Positions 10,771-27,812 of a stretch of DNA of 64,000 nt are shown here, in pieces. A program made the translations under genes and the position numbers. Position 1 is the stretch's first letter. Each line of letters begins with the position of its first letter. Source of the stretch: Saprospira sp. CCB-QB6 (GTDB lineage Bacteria > Bacteroidota > Bacteroidia > Chitinophagales > Saprospiraceae); NCBI RefSeq assembly GCF_028464065.1, contig NZ_CP116808.1:1199886-1263885 (forward strand). Direction: 5' to 3'. The notes under the pieces were generated by a model that searched no databases, had not been told where the DNA came from, and worked only from the letters and a program-made list of their open reading frames with translations.

Positions 10771-10808
10771 AAGCTATATGGTTAAGCAGTAAGTTATCGT
10801 ATGGCCAA

Positions 10809-11792: not shown

Positions 11793-11807
11793 GGGGAAGA
11801 ATGGGAA

Positions 11808-12029
11808 TTAGTGTTTAAAAATGGCTTTAAGATCGGCGGCATACATCTTTTCATTTTTGGCACAATAGGCCCAAAGCTGCTGCCTAGCGTCTTTTAAGCT
11901 TAAATTTCCTTTACGGATCTGTACCTTCAGGCTATTCAGTTTTAACTGAAGCGAGAGGCTTTTTAACTTGGGCTTGATTCGCTCTTCTAAGAGGGCAGCC
12001 CATTCTTCTTCTTGAGGATCTGCTAGCAT
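11808..12029 (-). CDS. Small hypothetical protein (73 aa)
   Basis: Co-oriented ORF 15 bp upstream of the paralog array. No similarity recognised. Confidence 0.35.
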   Translation of the reverse strand: MLADPQEEEWAALLEERIKPKLKSLSLQLKLNSLKVQIRKGNLSLKDARQQLWAYCAKNEKMYAADLKAIFKH

Positions 12030-12067
12030 GTTGTTAGTGATTTAGTGGTTTCTCCCTACAATTTAAT

Positions 12068-12098
12068 AAAAAAAGGCTTCAGATGGAAGCCTTTTTTT
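12068..12098 (-). terminator. Rho-independent terminator
   Basis: Hairpin ggcttc-agatg-gaagcc between an A-run and a T-run, 3' of the MORN lipoprotein gene. Confidence 0.55.
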
Positions 12099-12102
12099 AT
12101 TC

Positions 12103-12816
12103 TTATTTTAACGGTTCGCATTGCGGCCGCATTTTTTCAATTGTGCTTTTAGCAAAATCATTAACTCCTTCTACAGGGCCCTCCTTGGCTTTCCAAAAGG
12201 TTGCACAAGTCTTTAATTGACTGTCACAAAGCATTTTAGATTCTAAACTTCCTGTACTATCTTGATCGTAAATCCAGAGCTCACAATGCTCAATATTATC
12301 CACATACAAGCCTTTTGCTTTGAGTTGACCATTTTGATAAAACTCTTCAAAAGGACCATTGGCCATATTTTCCACCATAAAGACCCGCTCTTTGAGGCGG
12401 CCATTGGGGTAATAGGTTTTTAAGCTGTCTGCTAAAGCATCTGCCTGATAGTGTCCTTCCTGTTTAAGCTTACCATCAGGAAAATAGTACTTTACGGGGC
12501 CTTCTAATTGCCCTTTTTCATTGTATTGAAAGCTAGCAGCTAGTTGTCCGTTGGGGTAATATTGTTTCTCCTCTCCGCGACTCAAGCCATCTTTGATTGT
12601 TTTTTCTAGGAACAAAATTTTTTTCCCATCCACTAAATTATACTCCTTGTAATAACCATCTTTTTTTTGCTTGAGTGTATCAAATTCGTACTCAATCCAT
12701 AAATTTTCTTGCTGCTCCGTTTTTAGCACCTTCGTGCTTTTGCTTTTTTCTACCTCTGCGGTCTGACAGGCCAACATCAATAGCAATAGCCCTCCGAATA
12801 TTAATTTTTTCATCAT
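12103..12816 (-). CDS. Lipoprotein with MORN-variant repeats (YwqK-like)
   Basis: Signal peptide with lipobox LLMLAC and repeated YYPNGQLK / YYFPDGKLK / FYQNGQLK units. Confidence 0.75.
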   Translation of the reverse strand: MMKKLIFGGLLLLMLACQTAEVEKSKSTKVLKTEQQENLWIEYEFDTLKQKKDGYYKEYNLVDGKKILFLEKTIKDGLSRGEEKQYYPNGQLAASFQYNEKGQLEGPVKYYFPDGKLKQEGHYQADALADSLKTYYPNGRLKERVFMVENMANGPFEEFYQNGQLKAKGLYVDNIEHCELWIYDQDSTGSLESKMLCDSQLKTCATFWKAKEGPVEGVNDFAKSTIEKMRPQCEPLK

Positions 12817-12839
12817 TATTATAGTGTTTAGTTTTTATT

Positions 12840-12967
12840 TTTTTTGGGCCTCCGCCTCGCTGCGCTCGTCGGCGCTACGTTGCGGGGCTCGCAGGTCTGC
12901 TCGGCCCTTCGGCGGCTTTGCCGCCTCGGTCTAGCCTGCGGCCACCCCTCCACATCGCTAGGCCAAG
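12840..12967 (+). repeat. GC-rich interspersed element, variant B
   Basis: TTTTTGGGCCTCCGC...GGGGCTCGCAGG...CACATCGCTAGGCC. Confidence 0.85.
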
Positions 12968-13172
12968 TGCTCAATCATGAATTCAGCTGCTTAGCAAGAT
13001 AAAAATTTACCTTTTGCAAATCCCTCCTCTTTATATAGAAAAGTACAATCCCTTAAAAAGTTACGTTCTTTAAAAATCGGGGGCTTTACAAAATAGTTGT
13101 ATCTTTATATAGGCCCCGTTAAATCGACTCATTCAATTCCGCAAATCCATTTCTCCCCAACCTCAAGTTACT

Positions 13173-13688
13173 ATGAAATTTCACTTACTTCTTATTGCTT
13201 TATTTGCTTTCAGTCTCTTTTCTTGTCAATCTGGACAGCCTGGACAAATTTCCATAGAGGTGGCCCAAAAAGGGCCTTTTCCCGAAAAAGAGTTTGCAAA
13301 AATTGTCGCCTATGACTATGAGAGTATGCAAGGCGATTATATACTCAATCGAAAAGGAGAATTACATCCTTCAGTAAAGGCTCAAAAAGTGCTAAGCAAA
13401 GAGCAGGCAGCACTCTTAGTAGAGACTTTGAATAGTGAGAGTACTTATGGCGGTTCGGTAACCCGTTGTTTTTATCCTCGTTTGGGTTTTGTTTTTTATA
13501 ATGGCAGTGATGAGCCAGTAGGGCAAGTGAGTGTATGTTTTCAGTGTAACCAGCAAGTAGCTGGCCCTGAGATTCCTGTACAAGAAGCGCTGCTTACGGC
13601 TGGTAAACCAGCGGGTTATAGTTCTTTAGGACGGGAAAAGCTCAGTGCGCTTTGTCAAAGTTTAGGCTTTAGTAATTGTGCTGAATAA
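13173..13688 (+). CDS. Lipoprotein, hypothetical
   Basis: MKFHLLLIALFAFSLFSC lipobox, 171 aa, followed by a strong terminator. Confidence 0.65.
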   Translation: MKFHLLLIALFAFSLFSCQSGQPGQISIEVAQKGPFPEKEFAKIVAYDYESMQGDYILNRKGELHPSVKAQKVLSKEQAALLVETLNSESTYGGSVTRCFYPRLGFVFYNGSDEPVGQVSVCFQCNQQVAGPEIPVQEALLTAGKPAGYSSLGREKLSALCQSLGFSNCAE

Positions 13689-13703
13689 GTGATTATGTTA
13701 TAT

Positions 13704-13748
13704 AAAAATGGCCGTTTTCCCAAGCTGGAAAACGGCCATTTTATTTTG
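13704..13748 (+). terminator. Rho-independent terminator
   Basis: Perfect 16-bp stem aaaatggccgttttcc/ggaaaacggccatttt followed by a T-run. Confidence 0.65.
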
Positions 13749-13754
13749 CGTACT

Positions 13755-13850
13755 ACAGGGTCGCCGAAGGCGAAAGACCTAACGGGCGCAGCCTGCACAG
13801 GGCCAATCGAGCAGCAAGCTGCGACAACCCGCCCCAAAAAAGAGGCTATC
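13755..13850 (-). repeat. GC-rich interspersed element, degenerate or truncated copy
   Basis: gtcgccgaaggcgaaagacc..gggcgcagcc..gagcagcaagctgcgac..gccccaaaaaa resembles the reverse-orientation arm. Confidence 0.6.
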
Positions 13851-13855
13851 CCATT

Positions 13856-15304
13856 TTAATTTTCGGGGGTTAGCAAACCTTCTGTATTGGTTTTAATTAG
13901 TGTAACCATGGGGTTTGTGGCCAAGTTCATGGTCCCGGTCATGAGGTACCCCTTAAGTTCTCGGCGGGTAGTTCCAGGAACTAGCTCGCGGATGGGCATA
14001 ACTGTTCCTGCTTGGTTTCCAGCCAATGCTTGGCTACTATTATTTACAGAAGCGCGTCCAAATTCTCGAATTTGACCATCCCATTCAGGGGTTAAATCTG
14101 CGCTAATTTTGGCCATCACTAATTCATCTCCGAAATTGGCTTCATCATATTCTTTAACTGCGCTAATCACAAAGCTGGGGTCATTTCCCACAACATCTGA
14201 GGGGACCAATGCGATACTACCAGAGAGGAGGTCTTCTGTGGCATTGCTAAATCCTCCATTTGTTTTGCCTAGGTAGCGCCGCTGAATTTCTCCGAGGTCT
14301 TCACCGATTTGCAAGAGCATAAGGTCGCCTTCATTAACCTCATTTCGTGTGGGGTCACGATTTTCGACATGGCCTAAGATAGTAATTCGAGCATTGAGAG
14401 AATCGTAGCAAGATCCACCGGCTACAACAAACATATCTTGTCCGCCAAAGCCTTCTTGGCTAACTTCACCTCCAGAAGAGGCGCGAAATCGGATGGTAAG
14501 AATTTCAGTAGTAAAATTGGGATTGGCAGGAGTACTGTTCTCTTCATCTAGAGATTGAGAAGTTCCGATAACGATATAGGCGCCATTAATGACTTCTACA
14601 GAGACAGCACGATCTTCACCGACAAATCCTCTTTTTACTCTCCAGAGTACCTGGCCTTCAGTACTGAGTCGTACAGTAAGCATATCGGTTTTATCATACT
14701 CTGCATATTCTATGTATTCTGCTTTTACATTTAAATCTGTAGTTTCTCCAACTAGAACAAAGCCGCCATAGGGTAATTCTTTAATATCGTAAACAAAATC
14801 TTTATAGGTTTCTGAAGAAGCAAGCGTATTGCCATCAAAGAGCACTTTTTCCCAAACTATATTTCCATCTAGGTCTAGCTTATACAAAACGATATAAGTT
14901 GCATCTAGTGTAGATTGGCCACCGACTGTAACGACAGTTGTTCTGTTTCCGGCTACGAGGTAGCCAGATTCGTCAGAGAGGACCAGAACGCGATGTCCTG
15001 TTTCTTCGTAGCCATTTCCTCCATCACCAAAAGTTTTGCTCCATTCTTCATTCCCTAAAGAATCAGTTTTGATTAGGTAAAAGTCATTATAGCTAGAAGC
15101 ATTAACGAAAGAATTGGAAGAGCCTGCAATTATAAATCCTTTATCAGCTGTTTGTTTAACATCCTTTCCAATTTGGTCATTGACGTATCCGTAATATTTG
15201 ACAAAGGCATCTCCTTGGTTGGCTGGAGAGATATTCTCCTTTTTGCAGGAGGCTAGGCCAAGCAAGAGTAGGGCTGAGGCTGCCAGTAAATAGTGTTTTA
15301 ACAT
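13856..15304 (-). CDS. Lipoprotein, hypothetical (482 aa)
   Basis: MLKHYLLAASALLLLGLASC lipobox, long ORF with coding-like composition. Confidence 0.75.
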   Translation of the reverse strand: MLKHYLLAASALLLLGLASCKKENISPANQGDAFVKYYGYVNDQIGKDVKQTADKGFIIAGSSNSFVNASSYNDFYLIKTDSLGNEEWSKTFGDGGNGYEETGHRVLVLSDESGYLVAGNRTTVVTVGGQSTLDATYIVLYKLDLDGNIVWEKVLFDGNTLASSETYKDFVYDIKELPYGGFVLVGETTDLNVKAEYIEYAEYDKTDMLTVRLSTEGQVLWRVKRGFVGEDRAVSVEVINGAYIVIGTSQSLDEENSTPANPNFTTEILTIRFRASSGGEVSQEGFGGQDMFVVAGGSCYDSLNARITILGHVENRDPTRNEVNEGDLMLLQIGEDLGEIQRRYLGKTNGGFSNATEDLLSGSIALVPSDVVGNDPSFVISAVKEYDEANFGDELVMAKISADLTPEWDGQIREFGRASVNNSSQALAGNQAGTVMPIRELVPGTTRRELKGYLMTGTMNLATNPMVTLIKTNTEGLLTPEN

Positions 15305-15325
15305 AGGTGTAAATTTTAGGTAGAT

Positions 15326-16726
15326 TTATTTCTTCTTAATCTCAGAGGCTTTGTCTTTGATTTCATCAATCACCTTTGAGCTAGCGCGGCCACGGCGCAC
15401 ATCTTCAATGATACCAGGTTGGTCTCTTTCGAGTTCACGGACAAAGCTATTGAGTTCTTGTTTTAGTTCAGAGTCTGTAGTCCGTTTAGCGTTCCGTTTT
15501 TCTTTACTAATAATCTTATTCAGGCGACGATTGATAAAGACTTCATTGTACTGTCTTTTTTTTCTGGGTTTATAGAAAGATTTTTCAAAGCCGATTGTGA
15601 GAGAATAATTATCCATGCGAAAATCATTATCTACATGTCCGTATTCATAGAGTAGTTCTGGATTGCTATAGCGATTTTCTCTATTGACGGAATTCATTAG
15701 AAAGCGGTTGTACCGGGCTTCAATAATAACAAAATCGTGGCCCACTCGAATTTTGGCTCCAGCTCCAGCCAAAAGAGAGATATTAAATGATTCCCGTAGC
15801 GACAAGCGATCATTATTGGTTTCGCCAGTTTGTACTTCACCCTTCAGGCCAGAACCAGCAATAACAAAGCTACGTTCGCCACCTACCACGGCTCCACCTC
15901 CGTCAGATTCTCGGGTAGTACTTCTTTGAATATTTACCATACTTGCTGAGAGCAAGAAATTGGGGGCGCCTCCGATATAGGCATAAGGAATTACCTTTTT
16001 ATAGCGCTTAAAATAGTGTTCGTATCGGAGCATTAGGGGAATATCAATCCAGTATTGGCGTTCATCGAACTGTAGGTTAGAGTACAGTTGCTCAAACTGA
16101 GTTGGTGTTTGGCTGCTTGGAGACAAAAACATGCTATCTATTCCTCTGTAGCTTCTAAGTGCAAAATTTCCTTCTAAGGCAAGGGTAAAATCTCGCCAGA
16201 TTGGCATTTCCACGCCAATAGCTCCTGAAACACCCAACATAAACGTATTGTAGTTTTCTGAACGGCGGTTATTATTATCTACATTATAAGTTTCTAAGAT
16301 TTGCAATCGGCTATTATTCGCTCCAATATTTGCATAGATAGAAATGAGGGGTTTATGTCTGTAGGTTCTAGACAAATAAATTAGGTCATAAGAATTATTG
16401 GGGTTTAAAGAGTCTGCCTCATAGAGAGGGTTAATTTTGAGGAGTTCTTCAAAAGATCGAGTAGCATCGTCGAGGTCATTGCGGAACAAGTAACTTTCGG
16501 TAAGTAGTTTATAGCCTTCTTCTCTTTTTGCTTTTACAGGAAAGGCTTTTTTATTTGCTAGGCAGTCGCGGATTAGGTCGCCTACCTCTTCCAGTTGGCC
16601 TTCTTCATAAGATCTTTTGGCCTCATCTAGGTTATCGTTACAGAGATCTTCATCTAGTGATTGTGCAGATAAGATTTGAGGGCTGAGGGCTAGGGCAACA
16701 GCGGCCCAAAGCAATTTTAGTTTCAT
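15326..16726 (-). CDS. Secreted protein with an N-terminal TPR-like region and a putative beta-barrel
   Basis: Start trimmed to MKLKLLWAAVALALS (signal peptide). Co-oriented with, and 22 bp from, the upstream lipoprotein gene. Confidence 0.7.
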   Translation of the reverse strand: MKLKLLWAAVALALSPQILSAQSLDEDLCNDNLDEAKRSYEEGQLEEVGDLIRDCLANKKAFPVKAKREEGYKLLTESYLFRNDLDDATRSFEELLKINPLYEADSLNPNNSYDLIYLSRTYRHKPLISIYANIGANNSRLQILETYNVDNNNRRSENYNTFMLGVSGAIGVEMPIWRDFTLALEGNFALRSYRGIDSMFLSPSSQTPTQFEQLYSNLQFDERQYWIDIPLMLRYEHYFKRYKKVIPYAYIGGAPNFLLSASMVNIQRSTTRESDGGGAVVGGERSFVIAGSGLKGEVQTGETNNDRLSLRESFNISLLAGAGAKIRVGHDFVIIEARYNRFLMNSVNRENRYSNPELLYEYGHVDNDFRMDNYSLTIGFEKSFYKPRKKRQYNEVFINRRLNKIISKEKRNAKRTTDSELKQELNSFVRELERDQPGIIEDVRRGRASSKVIDEIKDKASEIKKK

Positions 16727-16804
16727 AATAAAAAGCGAATTAGTAATTATTAAACTCGAACTCATTTTGTGAGACGGCAGGCGTCTACATTGGCTTAGGG
16801 ATAG

Positions 16805-16925
16805 GTAGCAGGGCCACCGGAGGTGGCAGACCGAAGCCCGGAGGGCTGAAGGGCCGAGCGAACAGCGAGCTGCGATATAGCCCGACCCTAGCGCCTTTAG
16901 GCGCCTAGGGGAAGCCCCTAAATAA
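16805..16925 (-). repeat. GC-rich interspersed element, variant A reverse (degenerate)
   Basis: gggccaccgg..ggcagaccgaagcccg..gggccgagcgaacagcgagc..cccgaccc. Confidence 0.7.
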
Positions 16926-17005
16926 TAACGATAGCACCTAAAAAAGGGGAAAGCTAGCCCGGCTAGCCCTCCCCTGGCACTATCTTTTAGAGGTATATGC
17001 TAATA

Positions 17006-20000
17006 TTAGTCCCCTTGTTGGTATTCATTTCCACAGGTTGATAGAGGAACGCGTTCTCCCTCTGCGGTAATGATATAAAGGCGTTGATTACGTGGATCTC
17101 TTTCGGGATCATCTGTACCGATATATTTTCTCCATTCTTTATTAGAGAGATTTCGACGAACCATAGCACAAAGTTGGCTCGCATAGCGGAACATATCCAC
17201 TTCATAGATTTTAACTTCTCCATTAGCGCAGCCTGTGAGGACTTTTTGTCCGTCATGGGTAAAGGCAACAGAGAGCACCCAATCTTCATGGTCTTCTAAA
17301 CGGACGGGTTGGAATTTAGGATCTTTGAAGGGAAACTCCTCTTCATTATCATAATTTTCATAAGCTTGATTCCAGATTTGCCAGAGCGTTGCTCTTTTAT
17401 CTAGGCTACCTACGACTAGCATTGTTCCATCATCAGAAAAGCTAAGGTCACTAATTTTTGCACTATGATAAATTAGGCGTTCGGGGACATAACGATTTCC
17501 TTGGTGATCTAGGCCATTTTTGTAGTGATAAATGTCAAAGATTAGCAAAGATCCGTCTTGATAGCCTACAGCTACGAATCGGCCTGTGGGGCTAATAGCT
17601 ACAGCTGTCGCATTGCGTTTGTTATATGGGTTTTCGAGTTTAAAATCCTCTTGGCCAGACTTAATATTCCAAATAGAGACATCAGGAGAGCCCCCTGCAC
17701 CAGCGACATGTTGTCCGTCAGCAGAAATAGCGATTGAAGTTACACGATAAGGAGTACGTTCCACGATAGGCGTTACTTCTCCCTTCATATTCGTATACTT
17801 AATACTGCGATCATCTCCTGTTGAAATCACGGCATTGCCACTGGGTAAAAACCCAAGATCCCAGACACGGCGACCGCGGTGTACATCGACCTTAAGCATA
17901 CGTTCTTCTTTGGCTACATCCCAAATTTCCATATAATCTTCATCGCCGGCACGGACCAGGAACTTTCCTTGAGCATTCATATCCATGCAACGGTATACTC
18001 TATTATTACGGTTACGCGTCAATACCTGAGGAGCGCCAACAGTTCTTTGATCTTCTTTATTATCAAAAACCTCCAAGGGCCATTTAAATAACCAACCATC
18101 AGAACCTGTAGTATAGACTTTTTGATCCCATTCTCCTTCTGCGGTAGAGACAACGATAGAGCGCATAGCTCCTAAGTGCGAAAGGCCTTCGGGGGGAACA
18201 TTAAGGCTATTAAAGTCAGGGTTATCTCTAACCCCTTGCATTTTATCTATAGCTTTATAAAGTGCCTCATAAATATAGGCATCATGCTTTTTTCCTCCAT
18301 TTACACGATTGAGTTCAAAAGCTTCTTTAGCTAAGAGTGCTTCTAAATCTGGCTCTTCTACTTTCCAAGATTTTACAGCGACCGACTGGGCCAAAGAAAG
18401 GCCTTTTGTCATAATTGCGTTGCGGCGTTCTTCTTGAGCGCGTTTTTCAGAGGCTATTGCATCACGGCGTGCTTGCTCTGCCTTTAGTCTGGCAATTTCC
18501 GCTCTTTGACGCTCTAGCTCTGCTGTATCTAAAGCAATTAGGGCCTTAGAACGAGCTTGATTTGCAGCTCTTGACTTTAGTTCAGCAATATCTGAAGAGC
18601 GAATAGCTTTTTCAGTTGCCTGACGAGCCAAAAAGCTTTCTCTTTGTGCGCGGTTAGCATTAACCTTAGCCATATATCGGCTTTCGTTAGCTCTTTGTTT
18701 CGCTATTTCTGCCTGATAAGCGGCTAAACGAGCTTCTTTTTCTTTGCGCCCAGCAATTTGCGCTGATCGGCGAGCACTATCTAGTGCGACTCCAGCGAGG
18801 AGCAAAAGAATTAAACAAATAGCACCAAAGCCCAAAGAAAGATATGTGATAAGCATACGCGTTTTACGTTTGCGGTCATCATCCTCCTTTTTATCTCGAA
18901 GTTTTTTATCCGAGGCTTCATGACTTTTATGTAAAAAGTCAATCGTTTCATCATAAGTAGTATTGTAACGAGAAGCCCAAGCTTTAGTTGGTGCCAAGCG
19001 TTCAGGATGCTCCTCATCATAAGTATGTGGCTCATACCATTTCAGCCCTAAACTCAGTTCAGGCTCTACCCAAAGAGCCCCTTTCCCCTCAAAATAGAGA
19101 GCAGCAGCAGTAGACAAGCGCATATAGGTCTCAGCAGCTTCATGCTCCTCTTCTGCCCAATGCGCCAAACGATCCCAATAAGAAATAAGACTTTCATGTG
19201 TAATACTTATAACTGTATCTAGCTCTAAGTCATCTCTATTGGGGGGGGCCTGTAAAAAACGACGATCAGCCCGAGAAAAAGCAACAATAACAGGGGCTAA
19301 AGCTTCTATATTTTTATCTGTAAGCTTACAAAGTTCTCCAACTGTAGCTACTCTACGGCTGGCCGACCCATCGGCATTGCGCTCTGAAAGCGCCCGAAAC
19401 ATCCGTTGGCAAGTTACTTTTTGTTCCTCTGTTTTGAGCTTATTATAAGCTTCCTCTGCATGCACAGAAAGTGCCTCCTTAATTGTACCTACATTCTCAT
19501 AATGCTTAATACCTAAGGGCAAACTGGGGTCTGAATCTACCTCTACCCAATTATCCCAAACGCGCATCATCAAATGCTGTAAACGAGGTAAGTCATCAAA
19601 ATCCTCCCCAATATCGGCAATCATTCGACTCACAAGATCAGGTGCAATTGCTGCTCCTACAGCCTTAACTGGCATAATCATGACCTTTTTGAGTTCTTCT
19701 ACCTTCATCTTAGGAATTAAGAACTGCCCATCATTAATGGCCTCTGGTAAGCCCCTAAAATCTGTACAACGCCCAATATAATCCGAGCGCATTGTCAATA
19801 CAATATAAATGGGCGCCTCTCGCTGCCTAGATGCATTGAGCAATAAGTTGACAAAGGTGGCTGCATCTTCTTGTGCTGCTGAAGAAGTTTTTGCAAAAGC
19901 AAAAATCTCCTCAAACTGGTCAATGACTACCATCAAATTGGCCCGCTCTACATCCGCATCCTTATATGCGTCAACCAAACCCAAGCTTCCTCGGCGCAAG

Positions 20001-20365
20001 GTTTTCTCTACAATAGCAGGATAGTTGGGGTCCATTTTAGTATCAGGATGCAAAACCCCTCTAGAAGCCAACTGTCGACTTAAATTTCCAATAGGGTTAT
20101 TGCCAGGCTGACAAACTGCAACCCGCCAATTCTGCCCAGCCTGTCCAGCAAAACCATCATTTAGTTTAGGGACCAAGGCTGCCCGAACTAGCGAGGACTT
20201 ACCACTGCCTGCCCCCCCTACTAAAGCCAAAAAACGATTGCCACGAATCTTGCGTAACAATTCATCAAGCTGCTTATTTCTTCCAAAAAAAAGCTCTCTC
20301 TCTTTGGCCTCATAAGGACGCAAACCAGGATAAGGTTCCTTAGTTAAAATTTCAAAGGATGCCAT
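17006..20365 (-). CDS. STAND-type P-loop NTPase with one TM helix, a long coiled coil and a C-terminal WD40-like beta-propeller
   Basis: N-terminus PYPGLRPYE..FFGR..LALVGGAGSGKSSLVRAAL (Walker A), VVIDQFEE (Walker B), TM segment LITYLSLGFGAICLILLLLAGV, an Ala/Arg/Gln-rich coiled coil, then WD-like repeats. Confidence 0.85.
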   Translation of the reverse strand: MASFEILTKEPYPGLRPYEAKERELFFGRNKQLDELLRKIRGNRFLALVGGAGSGKSSLVRAALVPKLNDGFAGQAGQNWRVAVCQPGNNPIGNLSRQLASRGVLHPDTKMDPNYPAIVEKTLRRGSLGLVDAYKDADVERANLMVVIDQFEEIFAFAKTSSAAQEDAATFVNLLLNASRQREAPIYIVLTMRSDYIGRCTDFRGLPEAINDGQFLIPKMKVEELKKVMIMPVKAVGAAIAPDLVSRMIADIGEDFDDLPRLQHLMMRVWDNWVEVDSDPSLPLGIKHYENVGTIKEALSVHAEEAYNKLKTEEQKVTCQRMFRALSERNADGSASRRVATVGELCKLTDKNIEALAPVIVAFSRADRRFLQAPPNRDDLELDTVISITHESLISYWDRLAHWAEEEHEAAETYMRLSTAAALYFEGKGALWVEPELSLGLKWYEPHTYDEEHPERLAPTKAWASRYNTTYDETIDFLHKSHEASDKKLRDKKEDDDRKRKTRMLITYLSLGFGAICLILLLLAGVALDSARRSAQIAGRKEKEARLAAYQAEIAKQRANESRYMAKVNANRAQRESFLARQATEKAIRSSDIAELKSRAANQARSKALIALDTAELERQRAEIARLKAEQARRDAIASEKRAQEERRNAIMTKGLSLAQSVAVKSWKVEEPDLEALLAKEAFELNRVNGGKKHDAYIYEALYKAIDKMQGVRDNPDFNSLNVPPEGLSHLGAMRSIVVSTAEGEWDQKVYTTGSDGWLFKWPLEVFDNKEDQRTVGAPQVLTRNRNNRVYRCMDMNAQGKFLVRAGDEDYMEIWDVAKEERMLKVDVHRGRRVWDLGFLPSGNAVISTGDDRSIKYTNMKGEVTPIVERTPYRVTSIAISADGQHVAGAGGSPDVSIWNIKSGQEDFKLENPYNKRNATAVAISPTGRFVAVGYQDGSLLIFDIYHYKNGLDHQGNRYVPERLIYHSAKISDLSFSDDGTMLVVGSLDKRATLWQIWNQAYENYDNEEEFPFKDPKFQPVRLEDHEDWVLSVAFTHDGQKVLTGCANGEVKIYEVDMFRYASQLCAMVRRNLSNKEWRKYIGTDDPERDPRNQRLYIITAEGERVPLSTCGNEYQQGD

Positions 20366-20803
20366 ACTTTATATATAGTGTTAGTCTTGGGGAAGTTTTG
20401 GCAAAATAATGTTGCCTAGATGATTCTTCTCAGTGTAGTATGTTTTCAGCTTTAAGATAAGCGAATTATCCAGAATAATAAAACACCTCCTTAATTATTC
20501 CTTAAAATCAGAAGCGCCTTTTTTCTTTCTAACTTTACTTTTGCTTCTCCCCACTCGACACAAACCAACTACTGTATTAGTTCTAGCAAAAAGCTTGATG
20601 AAATACCAAAATTACCCATGAACAATAACTTAATATGCTTCAGAGACTAAACTATTCCCCAGAAAAAAATCTACTCTTTTGCACAAAATTTAATTTTGCC
20701 CTCCTACTTTAATTAGTATCTTAGCCCCGGAAAGCAGCATTTTCAGCATTCAATCCGCTTAAAATACTGCGACCCAATTCTTTAAGATCAAAACTTCAGG
20801 AAT

Positions 20804-21811
20804 ATGGCCAAGCGAAAAAAGAAGCCTGCTTTTTCAAAAGAACAGTACCTATCTTGGTACGAATTGATGTACCTCACACGCAAATTTGAAGAGCAGTGTA
20901 ATATTGTATATTATCAGAAAAAAATTCGTGGATTTCTCCACCTATGTATTGGCCAAGAAGCTATCTATGCCGCTATGCAGTCTGCCTGCCGCAAAGAAGA
21001 TTCTTGGATTACCGCCTACCGCGTTCACGGGATGGCACTAGCCGCTGGCATCTCCGCCAACGAAACTATGGCCGAACTCTATGGTAAGGCAACTGGCAAC
21101 GTTAAAGGCAAAGGAGGCTCTATGCACTTCTTTAATGCCGAACGCAATTTTTATGGCGGCCACGGTATCGTGGGCGGCCAAATCGGCCTCGGCGCAGGTA
21201 TCGCCTTTGCCGATAAATATAAAGGAAATGACAATGTAACCCTCGCCCTCTTCGGCGATGGCGCCTCTCGCCAAGGTATCCTACACGAGAGCTTTAATAT
21301 GGCCATGACCTGGAAACTTCCCGTGCTCTTTATTTGCGAAAATAATAAGTACGCTATGGGCACCTCTGTAGAACGTACCTCGAATGTGACCAACCTTCAC
21401 CTCCTAGGAGAAAGCTACAAAATGCCCAATAAAGCCATTAACGGCATGGACGTAGAAGTTCTTCACAACGAATTGAGCGAAGCTATCGACTATATCCGCC
21501 AAGGTAATGGCCCCATGCTGCTCGAAATCGAAACTTACCGCTACAAGGGCCACTCTATGTCTGACCCCGCTAAATACCGGACCAAAGACGAAGAGAAAGA
21601 ATATAAGGAGAAAGACCCCATCGGTCGCGTAGAACACATTCTCCTAGAAAACAACATGATTACGGAAGAAGAATTGAAGGAAATTCAAAACCGTCTCAAG
21701 GAAGAAGTGAAGGCCGCTGTAGATTTTGCAGAAAATTCACCCCTCCCCCAACCCGAGCAATTGTACGAAGATATGTATGTACAAGAAGATTACCCTTTTA
21801 TCAAGGATTAA
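20804..21811 (+). CDS. pdhA: Pyruvate dehydrogenase E1 component alpha subunit
   Basis: TPP-binding region GDGASRQG..ENNKYAMGT and a typical E1-alpha N-terminus. Confidence 0.92.
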   Translation: MAKRKKKPAFSKEQYLSWYELMYLTRKFEEQCNIVYYQKKIRGFLHLCIGQEAIYAAMQSACRKEDSWITAYRVHGMALAAGISANETMAELYGKATGNVKGKGGSMHFFNAERNFYGGHGIVGGQIGLGAGIAFADKYKGNDNVTLALFGDGASRQGILHESFNMAMTWKLPVLFICENNKYAMGTSVERTSNVTNLHLLGESYKMPNKAINGMDVEVLHNELSEAIDYIRQGNGPMLLEIETYRYKGHSMSDPAKYRTKDEEKEYKEKDPIGRVEHILLENNMITEEELKEIQNRLKEEVKAAVDFAENSPLPQPEQLYEDMYVQEDYPFIKD

Positions 21812-21882
21812 ATAAATCTAGCCCTCGGGACACAAAGAGCAATGGAAGCTAATTCTATTGCTCTTTGTTATGTTTTGGGGCC

Positions 21883-22130
21883 TCCCGCCACAGGCGGGCG
21901 GTTACTCCTTTTAGTCGTCGAACTGCGGCCTAAAGGCCTTGTTGTCGTTCCGCAGCTCGCTGCTGTTTTGGGGCCTCCCGCCTGCGGCGGGCGCTACGTT
22001 CCGCAGCTCGCTATTCGCTCGGCCCTGCGGCGGCTTTGCCGCCTGGGTCTGGCCCTTTGGGCCACTGCTGCACATCGCTAGGCCTGCGGCCCTTCGGGCC
22101 TGTAGATCGCAACTCCCAAAACTTTTGGCC
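21883..22130 (+). repeat. Composite GC-rich element: GTTACTCC...GTCGTCGAACTGCGG module followed by variant B
   Basis: Two abutting modules. ORFs 21842-22313 are artefacts. Confidence 0.85.
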
Positions 22131-22131
22131 C

Positions 22132-22169
22132 AAAAAAGAGCAACTGAAAATTTTCAGTTGCTCTTTTTT
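22132..22169. terminator. Bidirectional rho-independent terminator
   Basis: Perfect palindrome aaaaaagagcaactgaaaa/ttttcagttgctctttttt at the 3' end of the minus-strand injection-system cluster. Confidence 0.65.
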
Positions 22170-22183
22170 AATGATATATCTAA

Positions 22184-22975
22184 TTACTCATCCGAATCAT
22201 CATCTAAGTTCATCGCTGTAGATTGTCCCTTAGGCATCATACTCGTATCATCCCAAAGTTTAGACACCCAAAAGCGAAGAACCGCCTGTTTCTTTTCCTC
22301 TTTATCAAGATAACCATAATTTCCAGCTGTCTTGGCTTCTAATCGGAAATTGGTTTCTGTTCCCGTCCAACGGAAACTAATTTTTCGCCAAAGCAAACCA
22401 TAACTAGCTTTAACGTGCTTTACTACACCTTGACCATAAGTAGCCGTAGCAATGGCATAAGTCAAAGCATATTTAGCTCTTTTCTTTCGTCCCGCAGCAT
22501 GCGCAATAATTTCAAAGGCTTGTACGCCCTCCAAATCGGAAACGATTGGGTGCCAGCGACCATCGGCAGGGATTTCTCCTTGAACAAAGGTACCTACGCG
22601 GCCATTTGCCCCAAGCATTCCATTTACCTCTAGCTTAAAGTTGGGCAAAGTGGTCCCAATTCCAACATTACCTCCTTTGCGTAAGAAAAGGAGACTTTCA
22701 TTTTCGCCATCATTAAAGCTTAAGCCCTCGCTATGTGGAGTGGGATTCATAGAAACGCTAAACGAGGCTTGCGGGTCCCGAATGCTTTCATAGAAGCTCA
22801 TCAAGCGCTTATTTGGGCCTTGAGTGGCCAACATAAGGCCCTCCGTAGAACTTTGAGAAAAACCATCATCAACCTTATTGACGGTAGAGTCGATAAGGTC
22901 GGCAAAGTTTACTTCTGTGGGGACCATGCCCCTCTTGAATAGATTCTTGAGCGTGCTACGCGTGAGTAAAGCCAT
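22184..22975 (-). CDS. Putative baseplate-attached or tail-fibre-like protein (last gene of the cluster)
   Basis: 263 aa, co-oriented and downstream of the baseplate gene. The N-terminus (LKNLFKRGMVPTEVNFADLIDS) resembles phage fibre anchors only loosely. Confidence 0.6.
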   Translation of the reverse strand: MALLTRSTLKNLFKRGMVPTEVNFADLIDSTVNKVDDGFSQSSTEGLMLATQGPNKRLMSFYESIRDPQASFSVSMNPTPHSEGLSFNDGENESLLFLRKGGNVGIGTTLPNFKLEVNGMLGANGRVGTFVQGEIPADGRWHPIVSDLEGVQAFEIIAHAAGRKKRAKYALTYAIATATYGQGVVKHVKASYGLLWRKISFRWTGTETNFRLEAKTAGNYGYLDKEEKKQAVLRFWVSKLWDDTSMMPKGQSTAMNLDDDSDE

Positions 22976-23117
22976 TGGGTTAAATACTTTAACTTAGGTA
23001 AAGGCGGGTGAATGCCTCCAAATTTAAAAAATTGTTTGGAAAAGGCGCAGCCAAAACGATTTTATAATTTAGATTTTCTTAATAACGCCTTTATTTATTG
23101 TTTTTTGCTGCTTTTGA

Positions 23118-23285
23118 GGTGGCGGAGCCGCCTGTGAGCGAAGCGAGCCATGGCCCAGCGCTGCGCAGCAGTGGCCGCAGGCCAGACCTAGCGGGCGCAG
23201 CCCGCGCAGGGCCGAGCAGACTTGCGAGCTGCGAAGCATAGCGGCGGCCGCCCCACTATAAAGGGCGGCCGCGGGCCCCTAAAAA
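23118..23285 (-). repeat. GC-rich interspersed element, variant A reverse, plus a GCGGCCGC hairpin module
   Basis: gccagacc..gggccgagcag..., then agcggcggccgcccc..gggcggccgcgggc. Confidence 0.8.
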
Positions 23286-23307
23286 TGGTTATTCTAGGCC
23301 TAAAAAA

Positions 23308-23342
23308 GGCCCAAAAGTGCGGAAACTTCTGGGCCTAAGTTT
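23308..23342 (-). terminator. Terminator or attenuator after the baseplate gene
   Basis: On the minus strand, the hairpin ggcccagaag..cttttgggcc is followed by TTTTTT, immediately 3' of the stop at 23362. Confidence 0.45.
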
Positions 23343-23361
23343 TTATAATTTTCTAGCTCGT

Positions 23362-26300
23362 TTAATCGTCTAGTTCACGCTCTTCGGTCATTACAAAGTC
23401 TCCATCGAGCATCATATTGTCTAATCCAGCCTTGGCAGGTGATTGGAAAGCCACCTCGTCTAATAAGTAGAGTGGGTTTTTCTCGAAAGGAATGAGGACC
23501 GACCAAGGGGTAGTTGCCTTAAGTAAGGGAGAAGAAGAATTATCGATTGCGGTATCGCCTACATCAAAGCCTTCTCCGCTAGGGAATACCTGTACGGCAG
23601 AGAATTTCGTGACAAAATCGACATATTCTCTTTTTTCGATAAAGCTGAGGAGAACGTCTTTAGCTAGTGTTCCTCCTAGTTCTAATTCTCTTTGGCCGCC
23701 ATACATCCAGGGGCAGACAAAGTCCATAATATCCTTATTCAATTTTTTGAGAAAAGTACCGTTGTTCATGCCTTTTTGGAAGCGCAGACCGCCGGCTACT
23801 TTTACTCTTTCGTAAATAGGGTTACGGAGTTTAATATCGACAAAGGGGGAAGCTAAAGGAGTAAGATAATCTCGGATAGCCTCAAGAGTAGCGTTATTTA
23901 CCATAGGTAGGCGACCTTGATGAGCAGCCTTAATTCGAGGAACGACAACAAGGACCACTTGGCCTTTATCGACAAATTCTTCATGGCCAATATGGGTAAC
24001 GCATTTCACTTGAAAAATGTCGGGAAATTGATCGAGTACTAAGCGTTCATAATCCCAAGCAGACACTGCTCTTCCTTTATGGCGGAGGCGTTCGCTACTT
24101 CGGGTATAGAACTCTTTTTTATTTTCGCCAGGTCGTCCTTCAAAAGAGCCAAAAGGCTGTTGGACAGATCGAATTTGGACCAATGGATTGACCAAATTTT
24201 TGATCTTATTAGCGGCTAGTTTTTCTTCTAAGTGTTCTACTTCGTCTTCGGGTTCTCCAGCCCAGGTTGCAGAAATAGCTTGTGTTGATAGGTGAAGGAC
24301 AGTGGGCATTCGGCTTGCATCTCCGCGGAGAGAGGCTCGCAGCCAAAACTTACCTTTTTCGAAGATCGTGTTATTCTCAGAAATATCTCTGGGGATATCG
24401 AAGGTGATAATTCCAGAATTATTAAAGAAATTGGTGGTATCGTTTAGAATTTGTGTCTGAGAGAACTCCTTCCACTCATCATTTACGAGAAAGCTCCATA
24501 CAATTTCGGCTTGTTTGGCCTCACTGCTTCGGCCCTTCATCATAGAGAAATAGTCTTGATTCTCTTTGAGCTCGAAGTAGACAGAAAGAGTTGCTGGTGG
24601 GTTGAAGTCTTTGATTCCGAGGAAGAGATAAGCATCCTCGTCATAAGCGGGCAAAAGTGTGGGCTTAATTGGGCGGCCTTGAGAGAAGTTACGCATCACG
24701 CCAAAGGGGTGAATATGGAAGAGTTCTTCTACTACACCGCCAGAGCTATTCACTGTACCGATAGACATAATATTAACTTGAGCGGTTGCTGTATAGTCAA
24801 TACTCATGTTTCTGATTACAGGAGTAAAAGGTTGATTCGGAAGCTTTTTCTTCTCTTTAGTTTTGGGGTCTGCGTTATAAGCAGCCACATCAGCATAAAG
24901 ATTTGGAAACTCATCATGGGCGAATGCAGAGGGTGGATTTGTTAATTCCATACGGAAGTAGCCAGTCTGCGTTTCGCTGGTATAAGTGTCTAGTTGTTTA
25001 AGGTCTGCTTGAGGTTCGAGATCAAAAAGCTTAAGATCGATATTATCTAGGCAAGTGGCCGAGCTAATACCGTGAACGTTATCTTCATCCTGTTCAAAGA
25101 GGAAATATTCTTTGACATTATTCTTAGCTTCAGGGAAGAACTCTCCTTCTCGCAAAGCGGATAGTTTGATTCGGTAATCCTCATTTCGAACTCCTAGGCC
25201 ATACTCACGATAGTAGCCTCGGAGGCCTTTTGTATTATCGGGTAGATTATGCCAGTTAATATTGATTTTCAGATTGGTCAGTTCCTTTTTAAAGAGCTCT
25301 GTTTTTCCGATGAGAAGATAAGAACCAAGTTTTGGTGTAGGGCCAAAAGCTTGAAAAGGGATACTGCCTTCTAGTTGGCCATATTCATTGCTGAGGTTTA
25401 GGCGTTTAATTCCTTTAACCTCTACGTCGATGTTAATTCTTTCTAGGCTTAGCTCTTTAAGGAAAGAGTAAGAGTAGGTCACATTTTCATTTTGGTGAAG
25501 GACCTTCATCACAGGAAGAGTCGTGTCGAAGTCGGGGCCTAAAACGGCAGCATCGTAGCCTACAATAGCAGGAGCATTGGCTGAAACGGTAGCGAGCAGA
25601 CTAAACTCAGGGATGTTCCAATTTTCTGGAGGGAGTAGTTCGCAGCTTTTTGCTTCAATCCATCCTTCTTCTCCAGAGAGGAGTAGTTTCAGGCTATTTT
25701 TAAAAATTTTAGAGAAGGCATCTTCTTTAGAGAGCCCTTGATTACGGCTAATATCCTTAATTAAGAGATTAAGGGTATACATAGAAGACTTGTCAAATCG
25801 CATGCGCAATTTAATGCTTCTGTGTCCTTCTTCCATTTCTAAGATAGGAGCGGCCATAGCCCAACCTACTTCGGCATAGACCATTTGGCGTTCATCGGCT
25901 GCTTTCTCGAGTAGTTCTTCTCCGAAAGCGGGCCATTCCTCTTCATTATTGATAAAGCGTTTGCCTAAGCCATCTCTAGAGTTGGCAATAGGTGCGGCAT
26001 ACATATTAGTAATTAGGCGGTAAGAGCTACCGATACCAATTTTTGGATTTTTGCTTACAAAAAGCGTCTTCACCGAATCAACTTTAGCTTGATTCAATTC
26101 GATACCATAATCAGTTTTATAGCGAATAGGCTTGCCATTTTCGTCTACTCCAGCATCGAGTAGTGTACCTGCAGGCAAGAAAAAGCTATCAATATGTTTA
26201 GCTAAATTGAAATAGACATTCACCTGATCGGGTTGTAAGCCTCTTTCTTGCATTTTAAGCACATCGTAATAGTAAAAATCGAGATGCTTTTCGGTTAGGG

Positions 26301-27808: not shown

Positions 27809-27812
27809 ACTA

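What the first reader, a model, noticed from the sequence alone, without database searches (positions are those of the whole stretch)
17006..20365. 1119-aa membrane-spanning STAND NTPase with coiled coil and WD40 propeller near the injection-system locus
The order is an N-terminal NTPase (PYPGLRPYE..FFGR..GGAGSGKSS, Walker B VVIDQFEE), a helical domain, one TM helix, an Ala/Arg/Gln-rich coiled coil of about 170 aa, then WD40-like repeats. A TM helix placed between a STAND module and the propeller is an unusual topology for this class. It implies that the NTPase and the repeat domain sit on opposite sides of the membrane. The gene lies 1.8 kb from the injection-system cluster and is divergent from pdhA. 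It could be a signalling switch. A role in regulating firing or defence is possible but unsupported.
Basis: partly seen in the sequence, partly recalled or inferred. Interest (0 to 1): 0.6.

Follow-up and report, generated by a model that had tools for sequence, protein, structure and literature searches.

The report
Envelope-spanning STAND NTPase with ruler stalk
This Saprospira gene encodes a switch-type ATPase predicted to sit in the cytoplasm and reach across the periplasm on a fixed-length helical stalk to a propeller domain, as part of a widespread but unstudied gene cassette that includes an outer-membrane protein and is not tied to the neighbouring injection system.

Summary
ORF 17006-20365 (minus strand, 1119 aa) has four parts in order: an nSTAND1-clade STAND NTPase (Pfam E=2.4e-88), one strongly hydrophobic TM helix (residues 504-528), a continuous helix of about 131 aa, and a 7-bladed WD40 propeller.

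The architecture is the norm for a very large uncharacterised subfamily. About 145 of the 150 best relatives found with the NTPase alone carry the same single TM.

- The stalk has Ala at every 7th residue for 18 heptads. Its length is fixed across phyla (median 131 aa, IQR 130-134).
- The gene is the core of a modular cassette. Its partners are an outer-membrane barrel or TonB-type receptor with a shared periplasmic N-terminal domain (49/56 Bacteroidota loci), a lipoprotein, and, in most lineages but not here, a TIR protein and a membrane HEAT/cNMP-binding protein.

Flank charges (212/247, p~1e-35) indicate NTPase-in, propeller-out.

The proposed link to the injection system is not supported. 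Contractile-system genes lie within 10 kb in 1 of 84 homologue loci and in none of six Saprospiraceae-type loci.

Best reading: a trans-envelope STAND receptor. Its signal and its output in Saprospira are unknown. No published description was found.

The parts
17006..20365 (-). Gene C: nSTAND1 NTPase - TM - Ala-heptad stalk - neck - 7-bladed WD40 - Cys-pair tail (1119 aa)
   Evidence: ORF; Pfam; AlphaFold2 model; best PDB match is full-length Apaf-1, E=2.8e-22
19094..20335 (-). Cytoplasmic STAND module (residues 11-424), with Walker A at 20192-20218 and Walker B at 19907-19936. There is no N-terminal effector domain.
   Evidence: PF20703 E=2.4e-88; invariant GKSS and DQ; pLDDT about 90
18782..18856 (-). 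Single transmembrane helix, residues 504-528
   Evidence: KD19 2.55, Hessa sum -3.0. A single TM at the equivalent place in 119/120 and about 145/150 homologues. N-flank K+R 6.29 against C-flank 3.41
18389..18781 (-). Periplasmic helical stalk, residues 529-659. Ala at every 7th residue from A531 to A650 (18 heptads). The small-residue seam continues into the TM (S510, C517, A524).
   Evidence: maximum run of 9 in 20,000 shuffles; length median 131 aa, IQR 130-134, n=151; single helix 533-666
17195..18388 (-). Helical neck (residues 660-719) and 7-bladed WD40 propeller (720-1057)
   Evidence: pLDDT about 95 with 27 strands in 7 blades; TM-score 0.86-0.88 to 7-bladed WD40 structures
17009..17194 (-). 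C-terminal tail domain with conserved C1066 ... W1078 ... C1111
   Evidence: Both Cys are 97% conserved, against 7-18% for the other two Cys of the C-terminal half
16945..16975 (-). Terminator-like hairpin (14-bp stem, 8 G-C pairs, T-run) 31 nt after the stop codon of gene C
15326..16765 (-). Gene D: outer-membrane beta-barrel protein. It has a signal peptide, a conserved TPR-like N-terminal domain with a Cys...Cys pair, and a charged C-terminal helical tail. The true start is probably M14 at 16726.
   Evidence: OMP_b-brl_2. Homologue directly downstream of C in 49/56 Bacteroidota loci. N-terminal domain shared with TonB-receptor-type D proteins
13856..15304 (-). Gene E: lipoprotein (LLGLAS|C lipobox), no Pfam match
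   Evidence: Homologue follows D in 32/51 Bacteroidota loci; lipobox in 28/34

Best explanation
Gene C encodes an inner-membrane STAND (nSTAND1-clade) NTPase with an N-in/C-out topology. The nucleotide switch module is cytoplasmic. One TM helix continues without a break into a helix of about 131 residues (about 19-20 nm) that carries an Ala seam. That helix holds a neck, a 7-bladed WD40 propeller and a small Cys-pair domain in the periplasm, near the outer membrane. The protein works with the two genes downstream. D is an outer-membrane barrel whose conserved N-terminal TPR-like domain faces the periplasm, and E is a lipoprotein. Together they form an envelope-spanning module. The proposed mechanism is as follows. 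An event at or beyond the outer membrane is read by D/E and the propeller. It is transmitted along the stalk and TM seam. It then changes the nucleotide and oligomeric state of the STAND module, which drives a cytoplasmic output. In most lineages the output is probably the translationally coupled TIR protein (B) and a membrane HEAT/cNMP-binding protein (A). The Saprospiraceae version (C-D-E only) lacks both, so its output is unknown. Shown by computation: the domain order, the TM, the conservation of topology indicators, the stalk periodicity and length, and the gene-neighbourhood conservation. Inferred: a physical C-D-E contact, the outside-in direction of signalling, and the nature of the signal and the output.
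For: Domain order and fold. TM: a single segment well above membrane-insertion thresholds, and not amphipathic. It is conserved in position but not in sequence in 119/120 full-length hits and in about 145/150 hits obtained with the NTPase alone. Topology: K+R in the 15 residues before the TM averages 6.29 against 3.41 after it, with N>C in 212/247 (p~1e-35). The NTPase needs cytoplasmic nucleotide (established knowledge). The C1066/C1111 pair is 97% conserved. Stalk: 18 uninterrupted Ala heptads, where 20,000 shuffles gave a mean of 3 and a maximum of 9. 95 of 257 homologues have 15 or more. Length is fixed at a median of 131 aa (IQR 130-134) despite about 22% identity. The seam extends four heptads into the TM, with 75-82% small residues against a 35% background. 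Partners: unbiased ORF clustering of 84 loci finds D in 49/56 and E in 32/51 Bacteroidota loci with enough flank, B in 20/20 Acidobacteriota and 31/56 Bacteroidota loci, and A in 39/46 Bacteroidota loci. D occurs with two unrelated barrels (a small OMP_b-brl_2 barrel, or a Plug plus TonB-dependent-receptor barrel) that share only the N-terminal domain just after the signal peptide (E=1e-9 and 3e-11). That pattern is what one expects of a docking module. The same C-D-E order is found in the Saprospiraceae loci L001, L002, L085 and L086.
Against: No topology experiment and no dedicated TM predictor was available; hydropathy scales and charge statistics were used instead. AlphaFold confidence is low for residues 510-610 (pLDDT 41-62), and only a monomer could be modelled, so the oligomeric state of the stalk is unknown. 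The Cys-pair tail also occurs in at least 2 of the 6 homologues where no TM was detected, so it does not prove an oxidising location. In the window a strong terminator-like hairpin separates C from D/E, so they may not be co-transcribed here. L087 and L088 lack D/E. The window protein has no effector domain and no A or B partner. No PADLOC or NCBIfam family matches C, B, D or E.
Confidence: 0.55

Rival explanations
1. Regulator, trigger or structural part of the neighbouring contractile injection system. In Saprospiraceae this is a membrane-anchored T6SS subtype iv, whose C6 trans-envelope complex (OM, periplasmic and IM parts) has no assigned proteins.
For: The gene lies 1.8 kb from the cluster in the window. 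One other locus, L006 (Sporocytophaga), has a full A-B-C-D cassette followed by Pvc16, sheath, tube and VgrG homologues. The Aureispira study reports an unassigned IM-periplasm-OM complex and speculates that it relays a firing signal. C, D and E together would span the same compartments.
Against: 83 of 84 homologue loci (about 1.2 Mb of flanks) have no sheath, tube, VgrG or Pvc16 homologue. None of L001, L002 (Aureispira anguillae) or L085-L088 has one within 10 kb. pdhA, a housekeeping gene on the other strand, separates the two in the window. The family is abundant in Acidobacteriota with a TIR partner instead. The sheath-preparation supplement held for the Aureispira paper mentions no WD40 or NTPase protein.
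Confidence: 0.07
2. A TolA/TonB-like periplasm-spanning tether that couples an outer-membrane barrel or TonB-type receptor to the inner membrane for transport or envelope integrity. The NTPase would act as a regulator, and the system would not be a conflict or immune system.
For: The layout of a TM followed by a long Ala-rich helix and a globular C-terminal domain resembles TolA and TonB (own knowledge). 14 of 54 D proteins are Plug plus TonB-dependent-receptor barrels. Stalk length is fixed like a periplasmic ruler. Component A is a polytopic membrane protein that could be a transporter. No known defence family matches.
Against: STAND NTPases are oligomerisation switches, not motors (established knowledge). 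No ExbBD/TolQR-type partner is conserved in the cassette. A TIR-domain partner in 51/76 loci points to NAD-based signalling or killing rather than transport.
Confidence: 0.15
3. The hydrophobic helix is itself the effector. On activation the STAND ring bundles the TM/stalk helices into a membrane-disrupting pore (abortive-infection logic), which would explain the effector-less C-D-E form.
For: The window protein has no effector domain. The small-residue seam runs through the TM, which favours tight helix bundling. STANDs oligomerise on activation (established knowledge; PMC7159879 as quoted).
Against: The TM sequence is poorly conserved (14-24% identity) and wholly apolar, with no polar lining. 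The same TM and stalk occur where a TIR effector is present. This is pure inference without any test.
Confidence: 0.12
4. The hydrophobic segment does not span the membrane (it is buried or peripheral), and the protein is an ordinary cytoplasmic STAND-WD40 sensor.
For: AlphaFold confidence is low around 517-536. Classic WD40 STANDs such as Apaf-1 are cytosolic.
Against: 25 consecutive apolar residues with KD19 2.55 and a low hydrophobic moment, flanked by charge clusters. Hydrophobicity is conserved without sequence conservation in about 97% of homologues. The positive-inside asymmetry is strong. The partners carry signal peptides or lipoboxes.
Confidence: 0.05

Closest known systems
nSTAND1 clade of STAND NTPases (Pfam PF20703; Kaur, Iyer, Burroughs & Aravind 2021, PMC8195603)
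   Same: The NTPase module matches the family model end to end (E=2.4e-88), and repeat-type C-terminal domains are typical. NCBI already names relatives 'nSTAND1 domain-containing NTPase'.
   Different: Described nSTAND1 systems carry N-terminal effector or adaptor domains (TIR, caspase, trypsin, EADs, death-like) and are treated as intracellular. This protein has no N-terminal domain. It inserts a TM and a fixed-length stalk between the NTPase and the sensor, and it comes with outer-membrane partners. I found no text describing that arrangement.
Apaf-1 / AP-ATPase-WD40 apoptosome proteins
   Same: Best structural match to the whole model (3shf, E=2.8e-22). Both have a STAND NTPase followed by a 7-bladed WD40 sensor.
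   Different: Apaf-1 is soluble, has an N-terminal CARD, and senses a cytosolic ligand. Sequence identity is 12%, and it has no TM or stalk.
TonB-dependent cell-surface signalling (FecA-FecR-FecI type) and TolA/TonB
   Same: An outer-membrane barrel (in 14 loci a Plug plus TonB-receptor barrel) carries an extra periplasmic N-terminal domain. Its partner is a single-pass inner-membrane protein that reaches across the periplasm.
   Different: The cassette has no STN domain, FecR-like anti-sigma factor, ECF sigma factor or ExbBD/TolQR. The cytoplasmic module is a STAND NTPase. This is an analogy of layout, not membership.
Toll-like receptors (extracellular repeat sensor - TM - cytoplasmic TIR)
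   Same: In the commonest B-C form, a repeat-domain sensor outside the cytoplasm is coupled through one TM to cytoplasmic TIR signalling.
   Different: Here the TIR is a separate protein, an NTPase switch is interposed, and the sensor is WD40 rather than LRR. The window's own cassette has no TIR. This is an analogy only.
Alacoil / alanine-zipper helix packing
   Same: Ala at every seventh residue with small or polar residues at +3 and partly hydrophobic flanks. This is the signature of unusually close helix-helix packing (own knowledge; the term is used in papers listed).
   Different: The length (18-23 heptads), the continuation into a TM helix and the strict length conservation are not features of described alacoils. 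Oligomeric state and orientation are untested.

Membership tests
STAND NTPase, nSTAND1 clade | Match to the curated family model above its threshold | tested here: met
   PF20703 scores 297.8 bits against a cut-off of 27.1, covering model positions 1-371 of 379
STAND NTPase, nSTAND1 clade | Intact Walker A (GxxxxGKS/T) and Walker B (hhhhD followed by acidic residues) | tested here: met
   GGAGSGKSS at 50-58 and VVIDQFEE at 146-153. G55, K56, S57, S58, D149 and Q150 are invariant in 60 sequences
STAND NTPase, nSTAND1 clade | Helical and winged-helix domains after the P-loop, and a C-terminal repeat (sensor) domain | tested here: met
   AlphaFold model with pLDDT about 90 for residues 1-490. The whole-chain best PDB match is Apaf-1. 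The propeller has 7 WD40 blades
STAND NTPase, nSTAND1 clade | N-terminal effector or effector-associated adaptor domain (typical of the described systems) | tested here: not met
   The family model starts at residue 11, with no other domain. The effector candidate (TIR protein B) is a separate gene in relatives and is absent from the window
Known anti-phage STAND systems (Avs, bNACHT and others in PADLOC-DB) | Match to a defence-system protein model | tested here: not met
   Only P-loop-level hits (E=0.01-0.1) for C, and none for B, D or E
Known anti-phage STAND systems (Avs, bNACHT and others in PADLOC-DB) | Protection against phage when expressed | not testable with these tools
   Needs experiments
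Accessory gene of eCIS / T6SS subtype iv | Conserved co-localisation with sheath, tube and baseplate genes across genomes | tested here: not met
   1 of 84 loci (L006). 0 of 6 Saprospiraceae-type loci within 10 kb
Accessory gene of eCIS / T6SS subtype iv | Co-occurrence in the same genome (phylogenetic profile) and physical presence in the machine | not testable with these tools
   Whole genomes could not be profiled. The held supplement of the Aureispira paper had no relevant entry
TonB-dependent cell-surface signalling | TonB-dependent transducer with an STN signalling domain, plus a FecR-type anti-sigma factor and an ECF sigma factor | tested here: not met
   D-long has Plug plus barrel but a different N-terminal domain. 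No FecR or ECF sigma cluster appears among the conserved neighbours
Single alpha-helix (ER/K) rod | Very high E/K/R content with dense i->i+4 salt bridges and few hydrophobic residues | tested here: not met
   E+K+R is 0.35, opposite-charge pairs are 0.17 per residue (1.38 in the AEEEKKK design), and 17% of residues are hydrophobic

The most novel reading that the evidence does not exclude
The C-D-E cassette is a bacterial NLR-like receptor that senses outside the cytoplasm. In ixotrophic Saprospiraceae it would be the missing sensor or trans-envelope module that couples prey contact at the outer membrane to firing of the T6SS subtype iv ('rhapidosome') encoded next to it in Saprospira.
Probability: 0.07. 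Interest if true: 0.9.

Novelty: new variant of a known kind. Interest (0 to 1): 0.66.

Why it matters
All STAND/NLR-type receptors characterised so far, in bacteria, plants and animals, sense ligands inside the cell. A STAND whose sensor sits in the periplasm at a fixed distance of about 19-20 nm from the inner membrane would extend that paradigm to surveillance of the cell envelope, especially as it is paired with an outer-membrane protein and usually with a TIR protein. It would also give a bacterial counterpart to the layout of a Toll-like receptor. The family is very large: 43,906 clusters at 50% identity match the NTPase module at E<=1e-3, and 8,163 at E<=1e-30. No member has been studied. 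The strictly conserved Ala-heptad stalk is a testable molecular ruler. For Saprospira specifically, it is a candidate, though an unlikely one, for the unassigned trans-envelope part of the predatory T6SSiv.

Tried and rejected
1. eCIS/T6SSiv linkage. I ran tblastn with the window's sheath, two tube proteins, VgrG, Pvc16 and three unassigned cluster ORFs against 84 homologue loci. Only L006 was positive. Six Saprospiraceae-type loci inspected by Pfam annotation were negative.
2. Known families. NCBIfam, PADLOC and a PDB sequence search gave only P-loop background for C. PADLOC gave nothing for B, D or E.
3. TIR (B) or HEAT/cNMP (A) partner or remnant in the window. None was found (best tblastn E=0.4 for B; no hit at E<=1 for A).
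4. Single-alpha-helix rod as an explanation of the stalk. Rejected on composition and salt-bridge density.
5. Stalk as an intramolecular antiparallel hairpin. AlphaFold predicts one straight helix, but with low confidence, so this is not excluded for oligomers.
6. A regex for the C-terminal Cys motif was too strict (43/232) and was discarded in favour of alignment columns. It did show that the motif also occurs in at least 2 of 6 TM-less homologues, which weakens the disulphide argument.
7. Supplements of the ixotrophy preprint and of the 2026 STAND survey. Nothing usable was held.
8. Literature phrase searches for membrane-anchored or transmembrane STAND/NLR in bacteria found no relevant description.
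9. Conserved antisense 'ORF clusters' inside gene C are shadow ORFs and were ignored.
Full report
1. THE OBSERVATION

The window holds an ATG-started ORF of 1119 aa at 17006..20365 on the minus strand. Pfam places a full-length nSTAND1 (PF20703) module at residues 11-424 (E=2.4e-88), with WD40 repeats towards the C-terminus. Walker A (GGAGSGKSS, 50-58) and Walker B (VVIDQFEE, 146-153) can be read directly in the translation, and their key residues are invariant in a 60-sequence alignment.

Hydropathy analysis finds exactly one membrane-grade segment, residues 504-528. Its KD19 maximum is 2.55 and its position-independent Hessa sum is -3.0 kcal/mol, against +8.4 for the next-best window. Its hydrophobic moment is low, so it is not amphipathic.

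AlphaFold2 on a 60-sequence alignment gives mean pLDDT 88. The NTPase module (about 90) and the neck plus propeller (about 95) are confident. One continuous helix runs from 533 to 666. It has low confidence, as expected for a lone helix modelled as a monomer.

The best PDB match for the whole chain is full-length Apaf-1 (E=2.8e-22). The propeller superposes on 7-bladed WD40 domains with TM-score 0.86-0.88.

The helical stalk is about 131 aa, not about 170. It is Ala/Arg/Glu/Lys-rich rather than Gln-rich.

2. THE SOURCE

The closest database protein is 96% identical and comes from Saprospira grandis. The window therefore comes from a Saprospira strain (Bacteroidota, Saprospiraceae).

3. HOW UNUSUAL THE ARCHITECTURE IS

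I searched 1.84 billion cluster representatives with residues 1-500 only, leaving out the TM, stalk and propeller. That search returned 43,906 hits at E<=1e-3 and 8,163 at E<=1e-30. Of the best 150, about 145 carry a single strong hydrophobic segment directly after the NTPase module, at about residues 475-547. Among the 120 best full-length hits, the figure is 119.

The TM residues themselves are poorly conserved (14-24% identity), and only the hydrophobicity is kept. So the arrangement is unusual relative to every characterised STAND, but it is the rule for a very large uncharacterised branch of nSTAND1. That branch is found mainly in Bacteroidota and Acidobacteriota, with a few members in Cyanobacteria.

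4. TOPOLOGY

Across 247 homologues, the 15 residues before the TM hold 6.29 Lys+Arg on average, against 3.41 after it. The N-side exceeds the C-side in 212 cases and falls below it in 17 (Wilcoxon p~1e-35). Together with the NTPase's need for cytoplasmic nucleotide, this gives N-in/C-out.

In the C-terminal tail, C1066 and C1111 are each conserved in 97% of aligned sequences. The other two cysteines of the C-terminal half are conserved in 7-18%. That is compatible with a periplasmic disulphide. The same tail also occurs in at least 2 of the 6 homologues in which I detected no TM, so I treat it as supportive only.

The strongest independent support comes from the partner proteins described in section 6.

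The query has alanine at 531, 538... 650. That makes 18 consecutive heptads with Ala in the same position. In 20,000 shuffles of the same 127 residues, the longest run averaged 3 and never exceeded 9.

The pattern runs through the family. 158 of 257 homologues have runs of at least 8 heptads, 95 have at least 15, and the longest has 23. Pooled over the family, the +3 position is Ala/Gln/Ser, and the +1 and +6 positions are about 30% hydrophobic. The helix therefore has a seam of small residues with partly hydrophobic flanks.

The seam keeps its register back into the membrane. In the query the seam positions there are S510, C517 and A524. In 40 homologues, 75-82% of the four preceding heptad positions are Gly/Ala/Ser/Cys, against 35% for TM residues in general.

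The distance from the TM end to the conserved neck domain is strikingly constant. The median is 131 aa, the interquartile range is 130-134, and n=151. This holds although the stalk shares only about 22% identity between distant members. As a straight helix, 131 residues span about 19-20 nm, which is of the order of the width of a Gram-negative periplasm (own knowledge).

I tested the alternative that the stalk is a monomeric ER/K-type single alpha-helix, prompted by the designed AEEEXXX rods of PMC5347031. It does not fit. E+K+R content is 0.35 and opposite-charge i/i+3,4 pairs are 0.17 per residue, against 1.38 in the design. 17% of residues are hydrophobic. A helix-helix packing seam of the alacoil or alanine-zipper kind (own knowledge) is the better reading. 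The oligomeric state and orientation remain untested.

6. GENOMIC CONTEXT: THE REAL PARTNERS

I collected 88 homologue loci with flanks of up to 10 kb. Eight came from exact-protein look-ups and 80 from a one-genome-per-species scan. The clustering and counts below use the first 84, L001-L084.

Unbiased all-against-all clustering of every flanking ORF gave four conserved same-strand neighbours of the STAND gene, which I call C. The counts below use only loci with enough flank to see each partner.

- A: about 1,050 aa, with 7-10 predicted TM segments in the first ~430 residues, then HEAT repeats and a cNMP-binding domain. Found in 39/46 Bacteroidota loci and 0/16 Acidobacteriota loci.
- B: about 500 aa, soluble, with a TIR domain plus a TIR-like DUF4062 domain. 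It usually overlaps or abuts C's start codon. Found in 20/20 Acidobacteriota loci and 31/56 Bacteroidota loci.
- D: an outer-membrane protein directly after C. Found in 49/56 Bacteroidota loci and 4/18 Acidobacteriota loci.
- E: a lipoprotein directly after D, with a lipobox in 28/34. Found in 32/51 Bacteroidota loci.

The commonest patterns are ABCDE (20 loci), BC (22, mostly Acidobacteriota), ACDE (10) and CDE (5).

D comes in two forms. One is a small OMP_b-brl_2 barrel (40 loci) and the other a Plug plus TonB-dependent-receptor barrel (14 loci). The two forms share only an N-terminal domain of 80-120 aa that starts right after the signal peptide. This domain has a TPR-like sequence pattern and two aligned cysteines. 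The window's D against a Thermoanaerobaculia TonB-type D gives E=1e-9. Marinoscillum D against Mucilaginibacter D gives E=3e-11.

A periplasmic domain that stays constant while the barrel behind it is exchanged, and that always sits next to C, behaves like a docking module for C's periplasmic part. That is an inference.

The window carries the reduced C-D-E form. D is 15326-16765 and E is 13856-15304. No A or B homologue or remnant is present. The same C-D-E order is found in other Saprospiraceae-type loci: L001 (65% identity), L002 (Aureispira anguillae), L085 and L086. L087 and L088 have C without D/E.

In the window, a 14-bp-stem terminator-like hairpin lies 31 nt after C's stop codon. D/E may therefore be a separate transcription unit here, whereas in Marinoscillum the C-D gap is 3 bp.

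7. THE INJECTION-SYSTEM IDEA

The neighbouring cluster (about 22.2-36 kb, minus strand) encodes sheath, two gp19-type tube proteins, a VgrG-like spike and a Pvc16-N protein. According to the Aureispira ixotrophy study, the homologous Saprospiraceae cluster is a membrane-anchored T6SS subtype iv. The study says the classical 'rhapidosomes' of Saprospira are probably these structures. It also describes a C6-symmetric trans-envelope complex with OM, periplasmic and IM parts, to which no proteins are assigned, and speculates that this complex relays a firing signal.

Homologues of the window's sheath, tube, VgrG and Pvc16 proteins are present in only 1 of 84 homologue loci, L006, a Sporocytophaga MAG where the cluster follows the cassette. 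None of six Saprospiraceae-type loci has such genes within 10 kb, and that includes Aureispira, the genus in which the machine was studied. In the window itself, the housekeeping gene pdhA, on the opposite strand, lies between the two.

One chance-level repeat of the adjacency is worth noting but is not evidence of linkage. I keep the idea as a low-probability rival (0.07).

8. MECHANISM

Best-supported model (confidence 0.55): C is a trans-envelope STAND receptor. The nucleotide switch module is cytoplasmic. The propeller is held near the outer membrane by a fixed-length helix and contacts D and/or E. A change there is passed along the continuous seam-bearing stalk and TM helix to the STAND module, whose oligomeric or nucleotide state controls a cytoplasmic output.

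In B-C and A-B-C-D-E systems the obvious output is the TIR protein, with the cNMP-binding membrane protein A as a possible downstream element. In the Saprospiraceae C-D-E form the output is unknown. It may be an unlinked partner, or the bundling of the TM helices themselves.

Shown: the architecture, its conservation, the topology indicators and the neighbourhood statistics. Inferred: the contacts, the direction of signalling, the signal and the output.

Rivals are a TolA/TonB-like tether serving transport or envelope integrity (0.15), the TM bundle acting as effector (0.12), a T6SSiv trigger or component (0.07), and a non-spanning hydrophobic segment (0.05).

9. COMPARISON WITH WHAT IS KNOWN

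Membership in the nSTAND1 clade of STAND NTPases is met on the family model, the motifs and the fold. The typical N-terminal effector or adaptor is absent.

The protein is not a member of any PADLOC defence family. It is not part of FecA/FecR-type cell-surface signalling, because no STN domain, FecR or ECF sigma factor is present. It is not an ER/K rod.

It resembles TonB-dependent cell-surface signalling and TolA in layout. The B-C form resembles Toll-like receptors in logic: an outside repeat sensor, one TM and a cytoplasmic TIR.

The papers that define nSTAND1 and survey bacterial STANDs mention WD40 sensors and TM effectors. In the text I could search, they do not mention a TM placed between the NTPase and the sensor. 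The library is incomplete, so a description elsewhere cannot be excluded.

10. VERDICT

The feature is real. The topology inference is well supported computationally. The link to the injection system is not supported. The gene is the core of a widespread, modular, envelope-spanning STAND system that appears to be undescribed.

Novelty: new variant of a known kind. Interest: 0.66.

Limitations: no dedicated TM or topology predictor and no multimer modelling were available. Most loci come from metagenome-assembled genomes. The 80 scanned loci are the best of a hit list truncated at 600 stretches.

Noticed in passing
window 22184-35937 (minus strand): A contractile-tail gene cluster with sheath 32386-33879, gp19-type tube genes 31818-32273 and 30361-31050, VgrG-like spike 28125-29969, and Pvc16-N 35377-35937. 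It also holds large ORFs with no Pfam hit (1256 aa at 23362-27132, 375 aa at 33936-35063, 263 aa at 22184-22975). By homology with the Aureispira system described in 10.1101/2024.01.29.577165, this is probably the T6SS subtype iv, the 'rhapidosome' machine of Saprospira.
   Followed up: partly
window 36411-40517 (minus strand): Two large tandem GH18 (chitinase-like) proteins of 725 and 628 aa lie immediately upstream of the contractile-system cluster on the same strand. They could be cargo or accessory enzymes.
   Followed up: no
window 8693-11792 (minus strand): Three tandem paralogues of DUF6976 (339, 327 and 327 aa; E about 1e-112 to 1e-119), a family of unknown function.
   Followed up: no
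window 7814-8686 (minus strand): A protoglobin-STAS fusion protein (290 aa). It looks like a haem-based sensor coupled to an anti-sigma-antagonist-type domain.
   Followed up: no
window 13705-13742: A perfect 16-bp-stem hairpin flanked by A/T runs lies between the convergent genes E (13856-15304, minus strand) and 13173-13688 (plus strand). It is probably a bidirectional terminator.
   Followed up: no
L006 (Sporocytophaga MAG) 5234-22952: This is the only other locus where the STAND cassette (A, B, C and a split D) is followed within about 3 kb by Pvc16, sheath, tube and VgrG homologues of the window's contractile system. The D gene here appears split into two overlapping ORFs (13000-13572 and 13397-14077).
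   Followed up: partly
L087 13771-15345 and L088 228-1724: In the two Saprospiraceae-type loci that lack D/E, a stand-alone WD40 protein of about 500 aa lies close to the STAND gene.
   Followed up: no
L002 16674-17579, L085 18562-19467, L086 16667-17596: In Aureispira-type loci a gene of 301-309 aa with a faint TerB match lies downstream of the C-D-E cassette (directly after E in L002 and L086; one ORF intervenes in L085). It has no counterpart after gene E in the window.
   Followed up: no
L003 5193-8465 and 46 other loci (component A): Component A combines a polytopic membrane domain (7-10 predicted TM segments, no Pfam match at E<=0.01) with HEAT repeats and a C-terminal cNMP-binding domain. 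In loci where D is the TonB-receptor type, A lies downstream of D instead of upstream of B.
   Followed up: partly
window 16987-17289 (minus strand); L001-L084 inside gene C: Short ORFs overlap gene C. One is in another frame of the same strand in the window, and others are antisense and 'conserved' in 24-41 loci. They are shadow ORFs of the conserved coding sequence, not genes.
   Followed up: yes
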